A stretch of 64,000 nt of DNA from an uncultured archaeon (lineage in GTDB: Archaea; Altiarchaeota; Altiarchaeia; JAFGQM01), in assembly GCA_964592405.1 (NCBI GenBank), contig CAZQBY010000005.1, forward strand, positions 13,306 through 77,305, written 5' to 3'. The notes beneath the pieces are model-generated. The model saw only the letters and a program-made list of their open reading frames with translations. It made no database searches and was not told the origin of the DNA. Positions 1 to 28,931 of the stretch are shown one piece after another. Position 1 is the first letter of the stretch. Every line of letters starts with the position of its first letter. A program made the position numbers and the translations under genes.

Positions 1-2858
1 GTCTTGTCATCGGTGACCAGAGTGAAATATTTTAGATTCTTGGCATCAAAGAGATAGAGTTGGGTGAACATCGCGTTCATCCATCTCTCAGGCACGTGGA
101 TGAATATCTGTGGGGCAATGACATCTTCGCTCAGGCGCTGGCCATACCGCATGTTTATCAAGGCATCCTTTCCTGATGCCATAACCTCATTGTAATCCTT
201 TAGTTCACAGTTACTGGATATGAATTTGAGATCCTGCGAGCCATCAGAATACATACGTACTATAAATGCGGGGTAGTCGCCGCCATCAGCATATCTGAGT
301 CCGCTGAATCCTGTATATAAATAGGTTCGTATAGCCGTCTTGCGCTGACCATTCTCCGGGAAGATCACCGGCTTTAGCGAAGTTGAGTAGGCAGGCTTGC
401 ATGCATAGCCTTTGGTATTGAGCTGATACTGACCGTAGACAGCCTGCCCCGGCCTTCGCAATATCTTGGCAGATCCGCCCTTGTTTACTATGACATGCCA
501 GTCAAGGGAGCTGTTGCAGCATTTGGTTGGGTTTTCCTCACAACACATCTTTTTCTCAACCTGAGTCAGTAGGTCTCTGGTGCAGACCACACCCTGACTG
601 CAGACATACTTACCCTTCTTTTTCTCTGCTACAAGACCGTTCTCAACATTCTGGCATATCTCACCAACCTCGCAAGTGCCATTGACAGCAGTATAACCAT
701 TTGGGTATTGGTAGTAGTTCGTTCCCAAAAAGGAAAGTGCTCCCGACTTCCCTATGAGTGAGTAATCGAGTATTACATACTTTACCTTGTGCCCGCCGTC
801 AGGATCTTTTGGATTCCACGGCTGTTCCATAAGCCATTGCATGGCCTCATCCTCAGATGTTGTGTTGTAGAAAAAGCGGGCTATGCGCATTATATACTCC
901 TCCCCGGCCTGTAGCGGATCAGCTATTACTGTTGCTCTTGAAAGGGCGGTTATGAAGTGTCCATAGTCCCACCAGGTAAGGACATAATCGCCGTTTATGT
1001 ATTTATCGCCAATATATGCTCCGGGCCTGATGTGCTCATCCAGCCACTTGACGCCCAAAAACCATGCAGGGTCAACGGGTGCGGGTATCTTTGTCCGTTT
1101 CCACGCATCAGAATTATTATATGGATAAAAGATTGTGAAGGGTATCACTACCATGACTACAAGGAGGGTTATGACCTTCCAGCTGCCCATCTCCTTCCAG
1201 TTGTTTGGAAGCATAAGTCCTATCATGGAGCCTAGAAGGAGGAAGCCCAGACTCTGTGAGAAGGTCAGTCTTGCCTCAACCCAGACAAACTGCATGGCTA
1301 CTAGGAAGAAGATCAGGCATATCAGATATGCGCGCAACAGTTCGAACATACGATCCCGATCTTTAAAGAAGTAGTATAACAGGAATACGGGTACTAGAAC
1401 TGCCATTATAACTGTAAGAGGCTCTGCTATGTGGTATTTGGTGTATCCTGTGGTCAGCTTCTTTATAAGGTCCCCCCTTGCTAGAGCTGCCTGCTCGGAG
1501 ATTGTCTTGTCCACAAGAAAGTTGTGGGCCGATGTGCCGGCAAATTCTTCAAATGCCTTTTGGGGAACACTCAAGATGCGGTCTATGCCAATGGCAAAAA
1601 GGGCGATAAGGGTCGCGATTATAACTATGGCTGCAAATTGAGTAAAATATCTTTTCTCAAGCCCATGCTTGGTATCCTCCTTTTTCCAGATGCGGATACG
1701 GATAAGCTCGGCAAGCACCCCCATAAAGAGCATAAAGCCGTATGGCCCAATCTGGGTAACATCTATATGGAAATTTGTTAGGAAAACCAGATTGCCTGCT
1801 ATTGGTATCGCACCCGCAATGATGGCTGCACGAATAGTCCGCCAGATGTCATACTTTAGGAGTATGCTGAAGATTGAGTAAATTCCTAGGGCTGTAAATG
1901 GTATTGCAAATAGGAAGACTACTCCCTTCCAGCTTACAATAGTAATAAAAAAGGCCACTCCAGAGAGGACGGCATATTTTGTGTTTTCCCTTCCATCGGA
2001 TTTCATCGCCTTGGCCAGTAGGTAAAGTGAGAATATGCCCAGAACCATCCCCATGAGATCCTCTTCTATCGCCCCTGCAACAGATTTTGTCAGCAGAGCC
2101 GGCATGGTGGCGAAGAAGAGGCCTCCAAACATGCCGCTCTTCCAGTCACCTGTCAGCTCCTTGATGAAGAAGAACATCATGACGGCGCCGAAAGCAGATA
2201 TAAGGAGGGGGTAGAGGATTGTTATATCGCGTATTGGATTTCCTGTCATGAGGGCAAGGTAGGTATTGTAGTAATATGGAAATTTGTGGGGCGCTGCCCT
2301 ACCATGTGGCGGGTATATGGTGAAATCTATACGGGGTATGGTCCCCATCTCATAGAGTTTCTCTGTCTGTTTGTAATGATAGTAGGGATCATCCATGGAT
2401 ATTAAGTGGCCGGGCATCGGGCCCGAGCCCGGCAGGGCTGGATAAACCCGGAAGAGTATGGCAGTTACGGCCAGTACCATCACTACTGCTGTCTGCGGTT
2501 TTATTATCCTGCCTGCCACCAGTGCTGAAAGCGCCATATATGCTGTAAGCAATAGTATGAGGAGGGTGTCGCCGGGGATTTTGAAAATCACGGCGATTAG
2601 GGCAACTCCCATGAGGGCCGGCAGGACATTCCACTTGTCTTTCTTGAATCCACTAAAACTTGAGATGGAGAGGTAAGCTAGAAAGCCTGTTGAGCCAATG
2701 ACTATCAGGTTGAAAAGTAGTTTGGTTACATCATGTCTTATTAGGAGGCTTACCAGTAGGAAGATTGTGAGGGAGATGATGATGAGGAGGTGTGGTGAGT
2801 CTTCAAGTTTTTTTGATATCTCCTGCATTATGTCTTCCGCTTTCCTATTCTCTGCCAT
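1..2858 (-). CDS. aglB: Archaeal oligosaccharyltransferase AglB/STT3. The 3' end runs off the window. The start is at 2856-2858, or at the alternative Met at 2826-2828.
   Basis: My own minus-strand translation gives one long multi-TM ORF from the ATG at 2856-2858 to the window edge. The WWDYG catalytic motif is encoded at 961-975 (forward ccatagtcccacca). It is missing from the ORF track because there is no in-window stop. Confidence 0.8.
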   Translation of the reverse strand, partial: MAENRKAEDIMQEISKKLEDSPHLLIIISLTIFLLVSLLIRHDVTKLLFNLIVIGSTGFLAYLSISSFSGFKKDKWNVLPALMGVALIAVIFKIPGDTLLILLLTAYMALSALVAGRIIKPQTAVVMVLAVTAILFRVYPALPGSGPMPGHLISMDDPYYHYKQTEKLYEMGTIPRIDFTIYPPHGRAAPHKFPYYYNTYLALMTGNPIRDITILYPLLISAFGAVMMFFFIKELTGDWKSGMFGGLFFATMPALLTKSVAGAIEEDLMGMVLGIFSLYLLAKAMKSDGRENTKYAVLSGVAFFITIVSWKGVVFLFAIPFTALGIYSIFSILLKYDIWRTIRAAIIAGAIPIAGNLVFLTNFHIDVTQIGPYGFMLFMGVLAELIRIRIWKKEDTKHGLEKRYFTQFAAIVIIATLIALFAIGIDRILSVPQKAFEEFAGTSAHNFLVDKTISEQAALARGDLIKKLTTGYTKYHIAEPLTVIMAVLVPVFLLYYFFKDRDRMFELLRAYLICLIFFLVAMQFVWVEARLTFSQSLGFLLLGSMIGLMLPNNWKEMGSWKVITLLVVMVVIPFTIFYPYNNSDAWKRTKIPAPVDPAWFLGVKWLDEHIRPGAYIGDKYINGDYVLTWWDYGHFITALSRATVIADPLQAGEEYIMRIARFFYNTTSEDEAMQWLMEQPWNPKDPDGGHKVKYVILDYSLIGKSGALSFLGTNYYQYPNGYTAVNGTCEVGEICQNVENGLVAEKKKGKYVCSQGVVCTRDLLTQVEKKMCCEENPTKCCNSSLDWHVIVNKGGSAKILRRPGQAVYGQYQLNTKGYACKPAYSTSLKPVIFPENGQRKTAIRTYLYTGFSGLRYADGGDYPAFIVRMYSDGSQDLKFISSNCELKDYNEVMASGKDALINMRYGQRLSEDVIAPQIFIHVPERWMNAMFTQLYLFDAKNLKYFTLVTDDK

Positions 2859-16827: not shown

Positions 16828-17205
16828 CTATTCAAACTTTCTTTTTAGTATCCTAAACCCGCCGGGAACTATAAGTATCTTTGTCTCAGAAATCCGGCCC
16901 ATGTCGCCGTTTAGTTCGCTTTCGAGGTTTTTCAGGTTCCCAACGAGCTTTTTTAATGCCAGCCTGTTGGTCTGGGAAAGCGTTTCCGTGTCAAGAATTA
17001 TTACGTTTCCTTTTCTCAGCTCCCGTTCAATGTCTGCCATGACCTCTGGGGAGTTTGCGCTCAGGCTCTTGACATAGGTGTATTTGTCCTCATCAAGGAG
17101 CTCGCCCTCATGGAGGCCAATACCCTCCAGGTACTCATCTAAATCCACAACTTCATCGCTATCAGAACCCCCTTCCTCAAAACCAAGCCAGCTTTTTATT
17201 CCCAT
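16828..17205 (-). CDS. sepF: Cell division protein SepF (FtsZ membrane anchor, DUF552)
   Basis: ELRKGNVIILDTETL...DMGRISETKILIVPGGFRI matches the archaeal SepF core. Start is the second Met; the ORF track has 17256. Confidence 0.7.
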   Translation of the reverse strand: MGIKSWLGFEEGGSDSDEVVDLDEYLEGIGLHEGELLDEDKYTYVKSLSANSPEVMADIERELRKGNVIILDTETLSQTNRLALKKLVGNLKNLESELNGDMGRISETKILIVPGGFRILKRKFE

Positions 17206-19520: not shown

Positions 19521-19808
19521 ATGAGCATCAAAATATCGGAGCTGTATGGGACCGAAATATACACAAGCAAAGCCAAACACATCGGCAAGGTCGAAGACAT
19601 AATCCTCAACCTGCAGAAGGGCGAGATAATGAGAATCACGCTCGCTCCACTAAAAAGTGGCTTCCTTTCCAAAAGCAAGGTAGAAGAGATACTCAAGGAA
19701 AACAGCATTAGCTATCAGGATGTTGAGGAGGTTGGAGACATTGTCTTGGTGAAGCCCACCGTGCGCGCCGCAACTGCAGCAGCCAAGGGCGGGGCACACA
19801 GACACTAA
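19521..19808 (+). CDS. PRC-barrel domain protein
   Basis: 95 aa; MSIKISELYGTEIYTSKAKHIGKVEDIILNLQKGEI pattern. Confidence 0.6.
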   Translation: MSIKISELYGTEIYTSKAKHIGKVEDIILNLQKGEIMRITLAPLKSGFLSKSKVEEILKENSISYQDVEEVGDIVLVKPTVRAATAAAKGGAHRH

Positions 19809-19854
19809 CTTCCCACCCCAATTTTATAACACTCTACTGCTAAGTCTAGCCTAA

Positions 19855-21204
19855 ATGGTTCTTGACAAGCTCTCCTCAGGCCTGCAGAGGGTCCTAGAGC
19901 GTATTAGGGGGTCTGGTGTAGTCGACAGGACCACAGTCAGGGAGATAGTCAAGGAAATACAGAAGACGCTCATCTCAGCAGACGTCAAGATAGAGCAAGT
20001 CTTTGAAATATCAAGAATCATTGAGGAAAAAGCTCTAAAAGAGCGCCTGCCCGCCGGCATCCCACGAAAGGAACACCTTATAAAAGTGGTTTATGAGGAG
20101 ATATCCAGACTAATGGGGGGCGAGGAAGCAAGATTCGAGCTGGACCCCAAAAAGCAAAACAGGATAATACTTGTGGGGGTTCAGGGTTCCGGAAAGACAA
20201 CACAGGCTGCCAAACTAGCAAAATATCTAATGAAAAAGGGATTTAAACCAGCCCTGATATGCGCAGACAAATTCCGTCCCGGTGCATTGGAGCAACTACA
20301 GCAGCTCGGCAGGGAGATTAATGTTCCAGTTTACGGGGAGCAGGATGAGAAGAAGCCTTGGAACATTGCCAAGAGAGGGCTGGAGTACTTCAAAGATAAA
20401 AACGTTGTTATAATAGATTCAGAGGGGCGACATTCGCTGGATAGAGATCTTATGGATGAGATAGAACACCTGCATAAGGAGGTCAAACCTGATTACACAT
20501 TACTGGTCCTGGATTCCACAATAGGCCAGCAGGCAGAGGTCCAAGCGCGCGCATTTAAGGAGCGCGCAGGCGTAAATGGCATCATACTCACAAAATTGGA
20601 TGGTTCGGCCAAGGGTGGTGGCGGCATATCGGCATGTGCTGCAACAGGAGCTCCTGTTTTTTTCATAGGAGTTGGTGAGCGCATAGATGATTTGGAGCGG
20701 TTTGACCCAAAGGCATTTGTTGGCCGTCTGATGGGGTTTGGCGACATTAAGGGGTTGCTGCAGAAGTTTGAAGAGCACGTAGAAGAAGAGGAGCTCGAAG
20801 ATATAGCAAAGCGGATGATGGCCGGCAAGTTCACCCTCCTAGATGTTTATCACCAACTGGAGCACGTCAAGAAACTTGGGCCTCTGAACAAGGTGGCCGA
20901 GATGCTCCCCGGGTTTGGTAAAATAAGTGGCACCAAACTCCTCCCAAAGGAGGTACTCAATGTGCAGGAGGAAAAACTCAAAAGATTCAGACCAATCCTA
21001 CAGTCAATGACCTACCATGAACTCGAAAACCCAAAACTAAACCGTTCACGCGTTGAGAGAATAGCTGCCGGCTCTGGGACAGAACCCGAAGATGTGCGCG
21101 CACTTATACAACAATACAACCAAATGCGTGCGGGCTTCAAAAGACTCCGCAAGGACAGACGGTTTGCCAAAATGTTTAAATCAATGGCAGGCGAGGCGGC
21201 GTGA
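19855..21204 (+). CDS. ffh: Signal recognition particle protein SRP54
   Basis: GTPase motifs GVQGSGKTT, DSEGR, TKLDGSAKGG; C-terminal M domain. Confidence 0.95.
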   Translation: MVLDKLSSGLQRVLERIRGSGVVDRTTVREIVKEIQKTLISADVKIEQVFEISRIIEEKALKERLPAGIPRKEHLIKVVYEEISRLMGGEEARFELDPKKQNRIILVGVQGSGKTTQAAKLAKYLMKKGFKPALICADKFRPGALEQLQQLGREINVPVYGEQDEKKPWNIAKRGLEYFKDKNVVIIDSEGRHSLDRDLMDEIEHLHKEVKPDYTLLVLDSTIGQQAEVQARAFKERAGVNGIILTKLDGSAKGGGGISACAATGAPVFFIGVGERIDDLERFDPKAFVGRLMGFGDIKGLLQKFEEHVEEEELEDIAKRMMAGKFTLLDVYHQLEHVKKLGPLNKVAEMLPGFGKISGTKLLPKEVLNVQEEKLKRFRPILQSMTYHELENPKLNRSRVERIAAGSGTEPEDVRALIQQYNQMRAGFKRLRKDRRFAKMFKSMAGEAA

Positions 21205-28028: not shown

Positions 28029-28300
28029 TCAGCGGGCTAGGCCGGGGAGCTAGGGGTTCCCTCTTTCCCAAAATCCCCTTCAGGGAGCCGAATCCGAGGG
28101 GCGATTCGGTCTGGGTGGAGATGGATGGTTTTCCTCTGTGTCGATCCCTCGTCCCTTGGGGGCACATGTGATCCGAATCTGGTCAGGCCCTGACGGGAGC
28201 AGCCATAAGGATTATGTGTGTCGTCTAAGGAATCGCGAGGGGGAGCATGTAAACCACTCCTATCCATTTGGACCGTCTCCACCCGAGGGCCCGCTACCCA
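28029..28300 (+). ncRNA. ffs: SRP RNA (7S RNA). Ends are approximate.
   Basis: Helix-8-like SRP54-binding motif at 28181-28210 (GGTCAGGCCCTGACGGGAGCAGCCATAAGG; compare E. coli 4.5S ...GGUCAGGUCCGGAAGGAAGCAGCCAAGG). The flanking strands AAUCU/AGGAUU pair. A terminal helix forms between AGCGGGC (28031-28037) and GCCCGCT (28289-28295). The overlapping ORFs 27965-28423 have implausible composition. Confidence 0.65.
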
Positions 28301-28377
28301 ATCTTTCAATATGGCTTTTCTTACCCCTTCTTCTAATTTGACACTTGGATCTAAGTGTGTTCTAGGGTCGATCTGAG

Positions 28378-28607
28378 CCGAGGTCGGCGCAAACCCTCGC
28401 GGTTTGCTCACCTCAGCGCTCATAAGCAGAAAGGAAACCTACGCCGAGGTTGGGCGAACCTTCGGTTCGCAACCCTCGGCTAATATTCAGGGAGGACGTT
28501 CACGCCGAGGTCGGGCTCGCTTCGCTCGCGACCCTCGGCACATTTGTAGAAGAGCTACCTTTGCCGAGGTGGGTGTAAACCTCTGCGGTTTGCTCACCTC
28601 AGCGCTC
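28378..28607 (+). repeat. Array of four tRNA-Ser-derived minihelix elements (E1 28378-28421, E2 28444-28481, E3 28505-28541, E4 28565-28607)
   Basis: Each starts GCCGAGGT, which equals tRNA-Ser positions 1-8. Each ends CCTCGGC or CCTCAGC, the acceptor 3' strand. Each encloses a short hairpin. E2 and E3 have perfect 7-bp acceptor helices. Confidence 0.7.
28401..28451 (+). repeat. 51-nt perfect direct repeat, copy 1 (cggtttgctcacctcagcgctcataagcagaaaggaaacctacgccgaggt)
   Basis: Identical to 28587-28637. Ends in the first 8 nt of the tRNA-Ser sequence. Confidence 0.9.
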
Positions 28608-28637
28608 ATAAGCAGAAAGGAAACCTACGCCGAGGTG
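28587..28637 (+). repeat. 51-nt perfect direct repeat, copy 2. Runs into the genuine tRNA-Ser 5' end.
   Basis: Identical to 28401-28451. Confidence 0.9.
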
Positions 28638-28757
28638 GCGGAATCTGGCTAACGCGCCAGATTGGAGATCTGTGGACCTCCTGTCTACCAAGAACGGGGG
28701 CCATTTCCAGACATCTGGTGCCCTTCGGGGCGTCTGGGTTCAAATCCCAGCCTCGGC
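28628..28757 (+). tRNA. tRNA-Ser (anticodon GGA), class II, with an intron of about 45 nt at the canonical 37/38 site (intron about 28667-28711)
   Basis: Acceptor GCCGAGG/CCTCGGC. Discriminator G73. Anticodon stem CCAGA...TCTGG is completed only after removing the insert. Anticodon loop TTGGAGA. Long variable arm GCCC-TTCG-GGGC. T arm CTGGGTTCAAATCCCAG. The intron 3' part TCCAG can pair with loop TTGGA, forming a bulge-helix-bulge. Confidence 0.8.
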
Positions 28758-28772
28758 GCTTCATTGTCTAAG

Positions 28773-28911
28773 CGACGCCTCGCGCCGAGGCGTCTGTTCA
28801 CCTGCGCAACTTAGCGGCGAACAGGTGAACATCCCAGCCTCGGCGCTTCCTTCTCTAGGCAAATTAGCTGAGGGTCCCTGCAGCTTCGCTGCAGGTCTGA
28901 CCTCGGCGCTT
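28773..28911 (+). repeat. Downstream hairpins plus partial copies of the tRNA-Ser 3' end
   Basis: Perfect inverted repeats GACGCCTCG/CGAGGCGTC (28773-28793) and GTTCACCTG/CAGGTGAAC (28795-28829). 28830-28848 (ATCCCAGCCTCGGCGCTTC) duplicates tRNA 3' end 28742-28760. Hairpin CCTGCAGC-TTCG-CTGCAGG (28876-28894) is followed by CTGACCTCGGCGCTTC (28895-28911). Confidence 0.75.
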
Positions 28912-28931
28912 CTACTCTACTTAGCTTAAGC

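What the first reader, a model, noticed from the sequence alone, without database searches (positions are those of the whole stretch)
28376..28930. tRNA-Ser(GGA) sits inside an array of its own acceptor-stem/variable-arm minihelix copies and 3'-end remnants
Seen directly in the sequence. Four elements upstream of the real tRNA each begin with GCCGAGGT, which equals tRNA positions 1-8. Each ends with the acceptor 3' strand CCTCGGC (E2, E3) or CCTCAGC (E1, E4). Each encloses only one short hairpin. E2 (28444-28481) is GCCGAGG-T-TGGGCGAACC-TTCG-GTTCGCAA-CCCTCGGC. That is a perfect 7-bp acceptor helix plus a C(UUCG)G hairpin built like the tRNA's own variable arm (GCCC-TTCG-GGGC). E1 and E4 are diverged copies of one another. 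Their stem difference looks compensatory: GCAAAC/GTTTGC versus GTAAAC/GTTTGC with a G.U wobble. Downstream of the tRNA there are two more partial copies of its 3' end. One is at 28830-28848 and is identical to 28742-28760. The other is at 28895-28911. Each follows a strong hairpin. There are two possible readings. First, these are att-site scars from repeated site-specific integration and excision at this tRNA, with no integrase left in the window. Second, they are a family of tRNA-derived minihelix RNAs that could be RNase P, tRNase Z or CCA-enzyme substrates and are co-transcribed with the tRNA. The perfect acceptor helices of E2 and E3 argue against simple neutral decay.
Basis: partly seen in the sequence, partly recalled or inferred. 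Interest (0 to 1): 0.78.

Follow-up and report, generated by a model that had tools for sequence, protein, structure and literature searches.

The report
Acceptor-stem hairpin repeats flanking archaeal tRNA-Ser
An archaeal serine-tRNA gene sits in a tandem array of six shortened copies of itself that keep only its acceptor stem, and some of these copies are as conserved across related uncultured archaea as the tRNA, so they are not decaying debris, although their function is unknown.

Summary
The intron-containing tRNA-Ser(GGA) at 28629-28758 is one unit of a co-oriented seven-unit array. E1-E4 lie upstream. The two downstream "3' remnants" (F1, F2) are complete hairpins with their own 5' arm.

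All six keep the tRNA's 7-bp acceptor helix, with one mismatch or wobble at most. The same unit types flank tRNA-Ser genes in three MAGs and five metagenome contigs of one uncultured archaeal lineage.

Type A (E1/E4) is 88-98% identical between genomes. The tRNA exons are 85-92% identical and SRP RNA 80-84%. This excludes neutral decay.

Copy number changes by unit-on-unit recombination; a near-identical strain lacks 186 nt. In one relative, a 6-kb element encoding a tyrosine integrase lies between tRNA-Ser and a hairpin-shaped attR. The downstream units therefore have att-site anatomy.

Best reading (confidence about 0.4): self-derived tRNA-end repeats, co-transcribed with the tRNA, fold as acceptor-stem hairpins and are probably cut out by RNase P and tRNase Z, like "t-elements".

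Against this reading: two types (B, D) lack a T-arm-like helix, type A carries a conserved C3·A70 mismatch, and mismatches show no G·U bias. No expression data were available. I class this as a new variant of known kinds.

The parts
28331..28341 (+). TATA-like box TTCTAATTTGA, 35 nt upstream of E1. Candidate promoter for the whole array (inferred only).
   Evidence: Read from the sequence. Related arrays have an A/T-rich box at a similar distance before the first full unit.
28377..28417 (+). E1, a type-A unit: acceptor arms GCCGAGG/CCTCAGC (C3.A70) around a GCAAACC/GGTTTGC hairpin, followed by G73.
   Evidence: Fold -19.2 kcal/mol, z = -3.6. Covariance-model hit of 66.4 bits. Orthologs in L001, L043, L113, L132 and L138.
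28418..28442 (+). Spacer 1 (GCTCATAAGCAGAAAGGAAACCTAC), identical to spacer 4.
   Evidence: Repeat families D1 and D2. Spacer table.
28443..28480 (+). E2: a perfect 7-bp acceptor helix plus a 7-bp GCGAACC/GGUUCGC hairpin. Discriminator position is T.
   Evidence: Fold -25.4 kcal/mol, z = -5.2. No close ortholog found elsewhere; its 3' half resembles types B and C.
28481..28503 (+). Spacer 2 (TAATATTCAGGGAGGACGTTCAC).
28504..28539 (+). E3, a type-B unit: a 10-bp stem with one bulge closing a roughly 15-nt loop, with no real inner hairpin. Discriminator position is A.
   Evidence: interior z = -0.3. 35/36 identical to L043 and 36/36 identical to L138.
28540..28562 (+). Spacer 3 (ACATTTGTAGAAGAGCTACCTTT), conserved after type-B units in L043 and L138.
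28563..28603 (+). E4, the second type-A unit, 92% identical to E1 over the 74-nt repeat that includes the spacer.
   Evidence: Repeat family D2. Covariance-model hit of 69 bits.
28604..28628 (+). Spacer 4, which is also the 5' leader of the tRNA.
28629..28758 (+). tRNA-Ser(GGA) including G73, with a 45-nt intron at about 28668-28712 (canonical 37/38 position; the boundary is ambiguous within an ATCTG repeat).
   Evidence: Rfam RF00005, 47.9 bits. ARAGORN finds it only in intron mode. Coordinates.
28759..28783 (+). tRNA trailer (CTTCATTGTCTAAGCGACGCCTCGC). Its last bases extend the F1 helix.
   Evidence: (families D4, D6).
28784..28844 (+). F1: 5' arm GCCGAGG, a 10-bp inner hairpin TGTTCACCTG/CAGGTGAACA, then ATCCCAGCCTCGGC, which equals the tRNA 3' end. 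The helix extends 2 bp beyond 1:72.
   Evidence: Fold -34.8 kcal/mol. Helix extension and interior z = -2.8. Orthologs in L138/L136, L043, L113 and L132 have different but complementary stems.
28845..28866 (+). F1 trailer (GCTTCCTTCTCTAGGCAAATTA), homologous to the tRNA trailer.
   Evidence: Repeat families D4-D6.
28867..28907 (+). F2: arms GCTGAGG/CCTCGGC (U3.G70) around an 8-bp CCUGCAGC/GCUGCAGG hairpin, followed by GCTTC as after the tRNA.
   Evidence: Fold -25.4 kcal/mol. Interior z = -3.8.

Best explanation
The tRNA-Ser(GGA) gene is the only full-length member of a co-oriented tandem array of seven units built from its own ends.

The four upstream units keep tRNA positions 1-8 (sometimes 1-10) plus a complementary 7-nt 3' arm. 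The two downstream units keep the tRNA's 3' end plus a complementary 5' arm: F1 keeps the T-stem 3' strand, acceptor 3' strand, G73 and start of the trailer, and F2 keeps the acceptor 3' strand, G73 and start of the trailer. Every unit is followed by a spacer of 22-26 nt.

Shown:
- The units belong to a family found beside tRNA-Ser genes across one uncultured archaeal lineage.
- Types A and B are under constraint as strong as that on the tRNA.
- Arrays gain and lose units by recombination between units.
- In a relative, a tyrosine-integrase element uses the tRNA-Ser 3' end as its attachment site and leaves a hairpin-shaped attR. The 3'-side units therefore have att-site anatomy.

Inferred:
- The upstream units have no promoter of their own and are transcribed with the tRNA from a TATA-like box before E1.
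- Each folds locally into an acceptor-stem hairpin.
- RNase P cuts at the 5' G and tRNase Z cuts after position 73, as they do on tRNA-like 't-elements'. This releases 36-41-nt minihelix RNAs and the spacers, and frees the tRNA.

What the released hairpins then do is unknown. They could be decoys for an acceptor-stem-binding factor, regulators, or nothing more than processing punctuation.
For: - Array and folding statistics.
- All 26 catalogued units keep at least 6 of 7 acceptor pairs, and spacers are 22-26 nt.
- The upstream units all keep U8. Their helices do not pair both N73 and +1 with the leader, except in two type-C units (L043, L136), unlike the F1-type helices. Their -1 base is nearly always a pyrimidine, as in genuine tRNA leaders of 'clean' loci.
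- The same unit types flank tRNA-Ser in L001, L043, L113, L132, L134, L136, L138 and L139.
- Type A is 88-98% identical between genomes. tRNA-Ser exons are 85-92%, SRP RNA 80-86%, coding DNA 66-72%, and neutral intergenic DNA about 60%, which is the shuffled baseline.
- Variation in type A is concentrated in the 5-nt loop.
- F1 orthologs keep 8-10-bp stems through changes on both strands: window versus L043, and L043 versus L113.
- Type A occurs only next to tRNA-Ser in 304 kb of lineage DNA.
- Units next to other tRNAs carry the acceptor arms of those tRNAs: tRNAi-Met in L003/L004, and tRNA-Met and tRNA-Ile in L163.
- t-elements are documented RNase P and tRNase Z substrates in an archaeon (PMC4326828).
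Against: - No transcript data of any kind were available.
- Types B and D have essentially no helix beyond the acceptor stem (interior z = -0.3 to +0.4). They would be poor RNase P or tRNase Z substrates.
- Type A carries a conserved C3.A70 mismatch and folds better on the opposite strand (-24.5 versus -19.2 kcal/mol).
- Acceptor mismatches show no G.U-over-A.C bias (2 versus 3 independent cases).
- Type A shows no covariation; 14 of 16 pairs never vary.
- F1-type helices pair N73 and +1 with the leader, which is not tRNA-like.
- The discriminator is A or T in types B, C, D and E2.
- Four related tRNA-Ser loci have no units at all (L131, L133, L135/L140, L137), and a near-identical strain has one upstream unit instead of four. 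Copy number is therefore not essential.
- The full-length transcript can also pair arms of different units.
Confidence: 0.4

Rival explanations
1. The units work at the DNA level as recombination sites. They would be present or former attachment sites, or secondary or decoy att sites, of tRNA-targeting tyrosine integrases. These sites would be hairpin-shaped because the element-borne attP carries an inverted copy of the tRNA's last 8 nt, and might be used as folded single strands, as with CTX-phage attP or integron attC. Their similarity between genomes would then reflect shared mobile elements rather than selection in the host.
For: - L138 has a Phage_integrase gene (PF00589, 4e-18) about 110 nt after tRNA-Ser. 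Its roughly 6-kb element ends in GCCGAGG-ACAGAGGACC-TCAAATCCCAACCTCGGCG. That end is 19 nt identical to the tRNA 3' end and folds at -20.6 kcal/mol, z = -3.4.
- The sequence after this attR equals the empty-site state in L136.
- F1 identity blocks run from the T-loop to the 3' end, as in classical tDNA att sites (PMC4383910).
- F-type units occur sporadically after several different tRNAs.
- Copy number is polymorphic, and assemblies break at arrays.
- There is no G.U bias, and F1-type helices extend beyond the tRNA end.
Against: - The upstream units copy the 5' end of the tRNA, which 3'-end integration cannot produce.
- Only 22-26 nt separate the units, so no element remains between them.
- The trailers after the tRNA, F1 and F2 are homologous to each other. 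At the true attL and attR of L138 they are not. This points to tandem duplication.
- Unit order C-A-B-tRNA is conserved between L043 and L138 although the flanking gene is only 59% identical.
- No integrase homolog occurs in the window or the other loci.
- Six scans of viral contigs found nothing relevant.
Confidence: 0.25
2. The units act in cis as a structured leader and trailer and are not stable RNA products. Hairpins carrying spare copies of both acceptor strands would tune folding, 5'/3' maturation, termination or stability of the tRNA-Ser precursor. One way would be to sequester duplicated acceptor strands that could otherwise mispair with the tRNA.
For: - The arms of all units are interchangeable with those of the tRNA. 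The minimum-free-energy fold of the whole transcript does use cross-unit pairings.
- Spacer 3' ends often carry ACCT, which is complementary to AGGT at tRNA positions 5-8.
- The downstream trailers are pyrimidine-rich and T-rich, like the region after the SRP RNA, which suggests termination signals.
- Unit spacing is regular at 22-26 nt.
Against: - Related tRNA-Ser genes function without any units.
- Unit number varies from 0 to 5.
- The strong sequence conservation of the type-B loop and of the whole type-A hairpin is more than a generic structural buffer would need.
Confidence: 0.15
3. The units are neutral debris from repeated local duplication and internal deletion of the tRNA gene, with no function at any level.
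For: - Copy number varies between near-identical strains.
- Partial 5' stubs such as X0 occur in L043, L136 and L138.
- Degenerate units exist (L043 Y2, the odd unit in L132, L139 D').
- Some relatives have clean loci.
Against: - Type A is 88-98% and type B 97% identical across genomes in which neutral intergenic DNA is at the random baseline.
- Substitutions in type A cluster in the loop.
- Inner stems of F1 orthologs are maintained through changes on both strands.
- Acceptor arms are intact in all 26 units.
Confidence: 0.05

Closest known systems
t-elements: tRNA-like processing elements upstream of 5S rRNA in Haloferax volcanii and in plant mitochondrial transcripts
   Same: Both are short structures that mimic the tRNA acceptor end, are embedded in a longer transcript, and carry no anticodon. 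In Haloferax they are cut by RNase P and tRNase Z and so define the ends of neighbouring RNAs (PMC4326828; PMC1920247).
   Different: t-elements are single, flank a non-tRNA product, and resemble a generic tRNA. Here up to five units stand in tandem beside a real tRNA and copy that tRNA's own acceptor sequence exactly. Some units lack any T-arm-like helix. No processing has been shown.
Displaced tRNA-gene fragments (attL/attR repeats) left by tyrosine-integrase elements
   Same: F1, F2 and their relatives repeat the tRNA 3' end. In F1 and its relatives the repeat starts in the T-loop. In L138 such a repeat is the right end of an integrase-bearing island (PMC4383910 and PMC8371274).
   Different: Classical scars are bare 3' fragments separated from the tRNA by a whole island. 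Here the fragment is paired with a matching 5' arm, lies about 25 nt after the tRNA, shares the trailer, is conserved between genomes, and has a mirror-image counterpart made from the 5' end upstream of the gene.
Synthetic acceptor-stem minihelices and microhelices used to study aminoacyl-tRNA synthetases (the 'operational RNA code')
   Same: The architecture is the same: an acceptor helix with a discriminator base closing a short hairpin (background in PMC4033280).
   Different: Those are laboratory constructs of acceptor stem plus T-arm, 12 bp with a 7-nt loop. The natural units have other cores and often a non-G discriminator. Aminoacylation is entirely untested.
Folded single-strand recombination sites: integron attC and CTX-phage attP (from my own knowledge, not tested here)
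   Same: These are imperfect hairpins with conserved 7-bp inverted ends and a variable middle, are recognised by tyrosine recombinases, and occur in co-oriented arrays.
   Different: attC sites are separated by gene cassettes and have their own consensus. No IntI-type or Xer-type enzyme, and no single-stranded intermediate, is linked to these units.

Membership tests
tRNA genes (Rfam RF00005) | Cloverleaf with D, anticodon and T arms scoring above the family threshold. | tested here: not met
   Only 28629-28758 scores (47.9 bits). E1-E4, F1 and F2 give no tRNA hit even at E <= 10. Their hairpin loops are 3-5 nt or unstructured, so there is no anticodon loop.
t-elements (tRNA-like processing elements) | An acceptor-stem-like helix that brings the 5' and 3' ends together, with an unpaired discriminator. 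| tested here: met
   All 26 units across loci keep 6-7 of 7 acceptor pairs. Only two upstream units (the type-C units of L043 and L136) pair both N73 and +1 with the leader. F1-type units are an exception: their helix extends 2 bp further.
t-elements (tRNA-like processing elements) | A T-arm-like helix stacked on the acceptor stem, giving about 12 bp in total. | tested here: inconclusive
   A, E2, F1 and F2 have 14-18 paired positions. B and D have only 7-10 bp and an unstructured core.
t-elements (tRNA-like processing elements) | Cleavage by RNase P and tRNase Z in vivo or in vitro. | not testable with these tools
   No expression or enzymology data are available.
Integrase att-site repeats at tRNA genes | A direct repeat identical to the 3' segment of the tRNA gene, running to or past its 3' end. 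| tested here: met
   This holds for F1 (19 nt, 28744-28762 = 28831-28849) and F2 (12 nt). It does not hold for E1-E4, which repeat the 5' end.
Integrase att-site repeats at tRNA genes | An integrase gene or mobile element between the repeats. | tested here: not met
   In the window only 72-87 nt lie between the repeats. tblastn with the L138 integrase finds nothing in the window or the other lineage loci. The feature is met in the relative L138.
Dispersed palindromic repeats (REP or MITE-like) | Many copies scattered through the genome, independent of one gene. | tested here: not met
   No arm pair occurs elsewhere in the 64-kb window. The type-A covariance model hits only sites next to tRNA-Ser in 304 kb. 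Units next to other tRNAs carry those tRNAs' arms.
CRISPR arrays | Identical repeats separated by unique spacers acquired from foreign DNA. | tested here: not met
   The junction 'repeats' differ between units. The 'spacers' (unit cores) are conserved between genomes and are self-complementary.
Split or permuted tRNA genes | Separate 5' and 3' tRNA halves with complementary flanks that reconstitute one full tRNA. | tested here: not met
   Units contain both acceptor strands but no D, anticodon or T-arm sequence. An intact tRNA is present.

The most novel reading that the evidence does not exclude
The upstream units, type A above all, are genes for free-standing acceptor-stem minihelix RNAs. 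They would be matured by RNase P, tRNase Z and the CCA-adding enzyme, and would be recognised, or even charged, through the tRNA-Ser acceptor stem. That would make them a natural, conserved counterpart of the laboratory 'minihelix', with a dedicated cellular role outside decoding.
Probability: 0.12. Interest if true: 0.9.

Novelty: new variant of a known kind. Interest (0 to 1): 0.64.

Why it matters
Minihelices that carry only a tRNA acceptor stem are central to ideas about how tRNA recognition evolved. So far they are known as laboratory constructs or as isolated processing signals.

Here a whole archaeal lineage keeps arrays of them, built from the ends of a working tRNA gene, and some are held as constant as the tRNA itself. 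If they are expressed, they are a ready-made natural system for three questions:
- What RNase P, tRNase Z, the CCA-adding enzyme and seryl-tRNA synthetase do with an acceptor stem alone.
- What cells use such RNAs for.
- How the ends of neighbouring RNAs are defined by such units.

If they act as DNA, they point to hairpin-shaped attachment sites for archaeal integrases.

There is also a practical consequence. The arrays break assemblies, and the intron hides the tRNA from a default tRNA search.

Tried and rejected
**Searches that gave little**
Nearly all hits were chance matches in GC-rich bacteria. Only L043 and L113 were relevant.
- Six viral-contig scans for the tRNA 3' end, the tRNA body, types A and B, and hairpin-shaped att sites gave nothing relevant. 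L149 is a terminator hairpin in a bacterial phage with RecA, PolIII-alpha and gp32 genes.
- Retrieval by synteny through the neighbouring 643-aa protein, the 851-aa protein upstream of the L043 array, and SRP54 gave loci without tRNA-Ser, or contigs that end at the array.
- An exact look-up of five proteins returned no organism names.
- Literature searches found no earlier description.

**Ideas rejected**
- Promoters in the spacers. The A/T-richest part lies at -24 to -16 from the next unit. The -31 to -24 position falls in the GC-rich 3' arm. The geometry does not fit an archaeal TATA box (sequence reading).
- Bulge-helix-bulge introns, and armless tRNAs. The loops are 3-5 nt and there is no anticodon loop.
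- A CRISPR-like array, and a dispersed REP or MITE repeat (see the membership tests).
- A target for the conserved type-B loop. Its complement does not occur elsewhere in the window.
- Using G.U versus A.C mismatches to decide the functional strand. The counts are too few and balanced.
Full report
**1. What is there**

The window is archaeal. An archaeal SRP RNA (RF01857) lies at 28030-28296, and gyrase genes lie upstream. A tRNA-Ser(GGA) with a 45-nt intron lies at 28629-28758. Rfam scores it at 47.9 bits. ARAGORN finds it only when introns are allowed.

GCCGAGGT, which is tRNA positions 1-8, occurs 8 times in 64 kb against 1.34 expected. Five of these lie within 253 nt. They start four upstream units and the tRNA:
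- E1 28377-28417
- E2 28443-28480
- E3 28504-28539
- E4 28563-28603

Each unit ends in CCTCGGC or CCTCAGC and is followed by a 23-25-nt spacer.

The two downstream '3' remnants' are also complete hairpins:
- F1 (28784-28844) starts with GCCGAGG and ends with ATCCCAGCCTCGGC.
- F2 (28867-28907) starts with GCTGAGG and ends with CCTCGGC.

Both are followed by the same GCTTC trailer as the tRNA.

The locus is therefore a co-oriented array of seven units, one of which is the tRNA. Every element folds better than shuffled controls (z = -2.7 to -5.2), and the 591-nt region gives z = -7.95.

E3 has essentially no inner hairpin. E1 and E4 carry a C3.A70 mismatch.

**2. Relatives**

A near-identical metagenome contig (L001) has E1, the tRNA, F1 and F2, but lacks 186 nt. 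That length is exactly the E1-to-E4 repeat distance. This is either recombination between the two type-A units or an assembly collapse.

In two relatives retrieved through the neighbouring gene (L003, L004), a protein gene follows the SRP RNA. The tRNA-Ser cassette has therefore moved in the window's lineage.

Pattern scans then found tRNA-Ser genes with the same acceptor stem in two further MAGs (L043, L113) and ten metagenome contigs, L131-L140.
- Eight loci besides the window carry units: L001, L043, L113, L132, L134, L136, L138 and L139.
- Four distinct loci are clean and have A/T-rich promoter-like sequence instead: L131, L133, L135/L140 and L137.

Recurrent unit types are:
- A (E1 and E4; also in L001, L043, L113, L132 and L138)
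- B (E3; also in L043 and L138)
- C, 50 nt (L043, L113, L136, and twice in L138)
- D (L134, L139)
- F1 (window, L001, L043, L113, L132, L136, L138)

By SRP54, the lineage is a cluster of unnamed MAG proteins. Its nearest named relatives are Altiarchaeota and Bathyarchaeia MAGs at about 53% identity, so its placement is weak.

**3. Conservation**

| Comparison (window genome versus relatives) | Identity |
|---|---|
| Proteins (versus L004/L043 genome) | 53-72% |
| Coding DNA | 66-72% |
| SRP RNA | 80-86% |
| Intergenic DNA next to SRP RNA | about 60% (random-alignment baseline) |
| Type B | 97% |
| Type A (between genomes) | 88-98% |
| tRNA-Ser exons | 85-92% |
| Spacer after type A | 42-88% |

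The genome of L113 is included in the type-A range although its neighbouring protein is only 43% identical. In type A the variable positions are the 5-nt loop and three positions in the 5' strand. The 3' strand is invariant.

The unit order C-A-B-tRNA is shared by L043 and L138, although the flanking gene product is only 59% identical. Neutral decay is excluded unless the cassette has recently spread horizontally.

**4. Structure evidence**

All 26 catalogued units keep at least 6 of 7 acceptor pairs, and spacers are 22-26 nt.

F1 orthologs keep perfect 8-10-bp inner stems with different sequences:
- TGTTCACCTG/CAGGTGAACA in the window and L138
- TGTCAAGGTC/GACCTTGACA in L043
- CGGCAAGGT/ACCTTGCCG in L113

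L043 and L113 share the adjacent CAAGGTCATA(G/C)GCC, so the changes at the base of the stem are compensatory.

Type A gives no covariation either way; 14 of 16 pairs never vary. Types B and D, and some copies of C, have no significant inner structure.

Mismatches in the acceptor helix do not favour G.U over A.C. There are two G.U cases against three C.A or A.C cases. Type A folds better on the opposite strand. Selection for a hairpin is clear, but the data do not decide between RNA and DNA.

**5. Anatomy that points to origin**

The upstream units share 8-10 nt with the tRNA 5' end, always including U8. They share only the 7-nt complement at their 3' end.

The downstream units share 12-19 nt with the tRNA 3' end and only the 7-nt complement at their 5' end. 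In F1-type units that complement is extended by 2 bp, which pair N73 and +1.

Recent exact duplications of junction segments are visible:
- 44 nt in L043
- a 73-nt unit in L138
- a two-unit 118-nt repeat in L134
- the 186-nt three-unit repeat in the window

The array therefore evolves by unit-on-unit recombination.

**6. Link to integration**

In L138, a gene with a Phage_integrase domain (PF00589, 4e-18) starts about 110 nt after tRNA-Ser(TGA). About 6 kb further on lies GCCGAGG-ACAGAGGACC-TCAAATCCCAACCTCGGCG. Its last 19 nt equal the tRNA 3' end. It is followed by exactly the trailer and F1 unit that follow tRNA-Ser directly in L136.

This is an integrated element caught in place, and its attR is itself hairpin-shaped.

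F-type units whose arms match other tRNAs occur in several places. They follow tRNAi-Met in L003 and L004, and tRNA-Met(CAT) and tRNA-Ile in L163. A bare 3' fragment follows tRNA-Pro in L139.

In a control set of 24 tRNAs, 23 from unrelated loci had no such copies. The one exception was the tRNA-Ser of L113, which belongs to this lineage. In lineage loci, 4 of 27 tRNAs had downstream copies and 8 of 27, all tRNA-Ser, had upstream copies.

Several points argue against a pure scar model:
- The window has no integrase.
- No element remains between units.
- The trailers are homologous to one another.
- The upstream units cannot arise from 3'-end integration.

**7. How it most likely works**

The spacers lack a TATA box at the right distance, and position -31 to -24 falls in the GC-rich 3' arm. 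A TATA-like box lies before the first full unit in the window and in L043, L136 and L138 (sequence reading). I therefore infer one transcript from before E1 through the tRNA.

Local folding would give acceptor-stem hairpins whose ends look like a tRNA's. RNase P and tRNase Z are known to cut such tRNA-like 't-elements' in Haloferax (PMC4326828). My best explanation is a self-derived, selected family of tRNA-end repeats that are processed like t-elements. The downstream members originated at, or double as, integrase att sites.

Overall confidence is about 0.4:
- The family and its constraint: about 0.9
- RNA processing: about 0.35

Rivals are DNA-level recombination sites (0.25), a purely cis-acting structured leader and trailer (0.15), and neutral debris (0.05).

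**8. Comparison and novelty**

The units are not tRNAs. They are not dispersed repeats, CRISPR arrays, or split tRNA genes.

They resemble t-elements in architecture and att-site fragments in their 3'-end identity. They differ from both in four ways:
- They are tandem.
- They are exact copies of the acceptor stem of the adjacent tRNA.
- They are present on both sides of the gene in mirror-image form.
- They are conserved across a lineage.

Searches of the held literature found no description of such arrays. I rate it a new variant of known kinds, with interest 0.64.

Noticed in passing
window 28668-28712: The tRNA-Ser(GGA) carries a 45-nt intron at the canonical 37/38 position. The boundary is ambiguous within an ATCTG repeat. 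ARAGORN in default mode misses the gene entirely. Related tRNA-Ser genes (L132, L133, L139, L135/L140) also carry introns.
   Followed up: partly
window 28030-28296 versus L003 1122-1391(-) and L004 679-946(-): In the window, SRP RNA lies directly upstream of the array. In two relatives a protein gene follows the SRP RNA, and the SRP RNA / tRNA-Met block is inverted relative to the PQ-loop gene. The tRNA-Ser cassette has changed genomic context. In L139 the SRP RNA is about 2 kb upstream of the tRNA-Ser.
   Followed up: partly
L003 1563-1745 (+); L004 about 1015-1215 (-): Two hairpin units follow tRNAi-Met. They end in that tRNA's own 3' end (TCCCACCCCCGC(T/C)A plus trailer CTCACTCT) and have matching 5' arms. 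The first also contains an inner GCCGAGGT...ACCTCG(T/C)C helix, which is the tRNA-Ser arm sequence.
   Followed up: partly
L004 about 1200-1450 (-): By eye, the tRNAi-Met gene seems to be interrupted by several insertions, including one in the T-loop. Rfam at gathering threshold does not call it. This was not verified.
   Followed up: no
L138 458-6458: A roughly 6-kb integrated element is bounded by tRNA-Ser(TGA) and a hairpin-shaped attR. It encodes a tyrosine integrase, a beta-helix/NosD-like protein and a DUF3800 protein. L136, from the same metagenome, looks like the unoccupied form of the downstream junction but carries tRNA-Ser(GGA). The two tRNAs differ only in the anticodon loop.
   Followed up: partly
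L140 about 640-726: A displaced copy of the 3' part of tRNA-Ser(GCT), from the variable arm to the 3' end, lies about 110 nt after the gene. It carries a 37-nt insertion inside the T-loop. It may be the original 3' end with a T-loop intron, replaced by an intron-less copy.
   Followed up: no
L163 (minus strand), after the tRNAs at 19796-19922 and 16828-16902: tRNA-Met(CAT, with intron) and tRNA-Ile are each followed about 23 nt later by a hairpin. It starts with a 7-nt 5' arm matching the tRNA's own 5' acceptor strand (exact for tRNA-Met, one transposition for tRNA-Ile), contains an inner stem, and ends with a copy of the tRNA's last 12-14 nt.
   Followed up: partly
window 28377-28628 versus L001 8971-9036: A near-identical strain, or assembly, has one upstream unit instead of four, a 186-nt difference, plus two SNPs in the spacer. 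Several contigs stop at the edge of or inside an array (L134, L136, L156, L157), so these repeats break short-read assemblies.
   Followed up: partly
L132 7209-7592 (-); L137 upstream of the tRNA; L156 2437-3004: A PIN-domain (VapC-like) gene ends just upstream of tRNA-Ser(TGA) in L132 and L137. A MazE-PIN pair precedes the gene that lies before the array in L156 and L157. No link to the units was tested.
   Followed up: no
window 28620-28636 and equivalent junctions in L043, L113, L134, L138 and L139: The last bases of most spacers contain ACCT or CACCTC. This is complementary to AGGT or GAGGTG at positions 4-9 of the following unit or tRNA, so a small leader hairpin could form. It may also be a relic of a further 3' arm.
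   Followed up: no
L163 3385-4995 (-): A relative in the same lineage encodes an O-phosphoseryl-tRNA synthetase-like protein (tRNA-synt_2d plus a weak SepRS_C hit) a few kb from cdc6 and SRP54.
   Followed up: no
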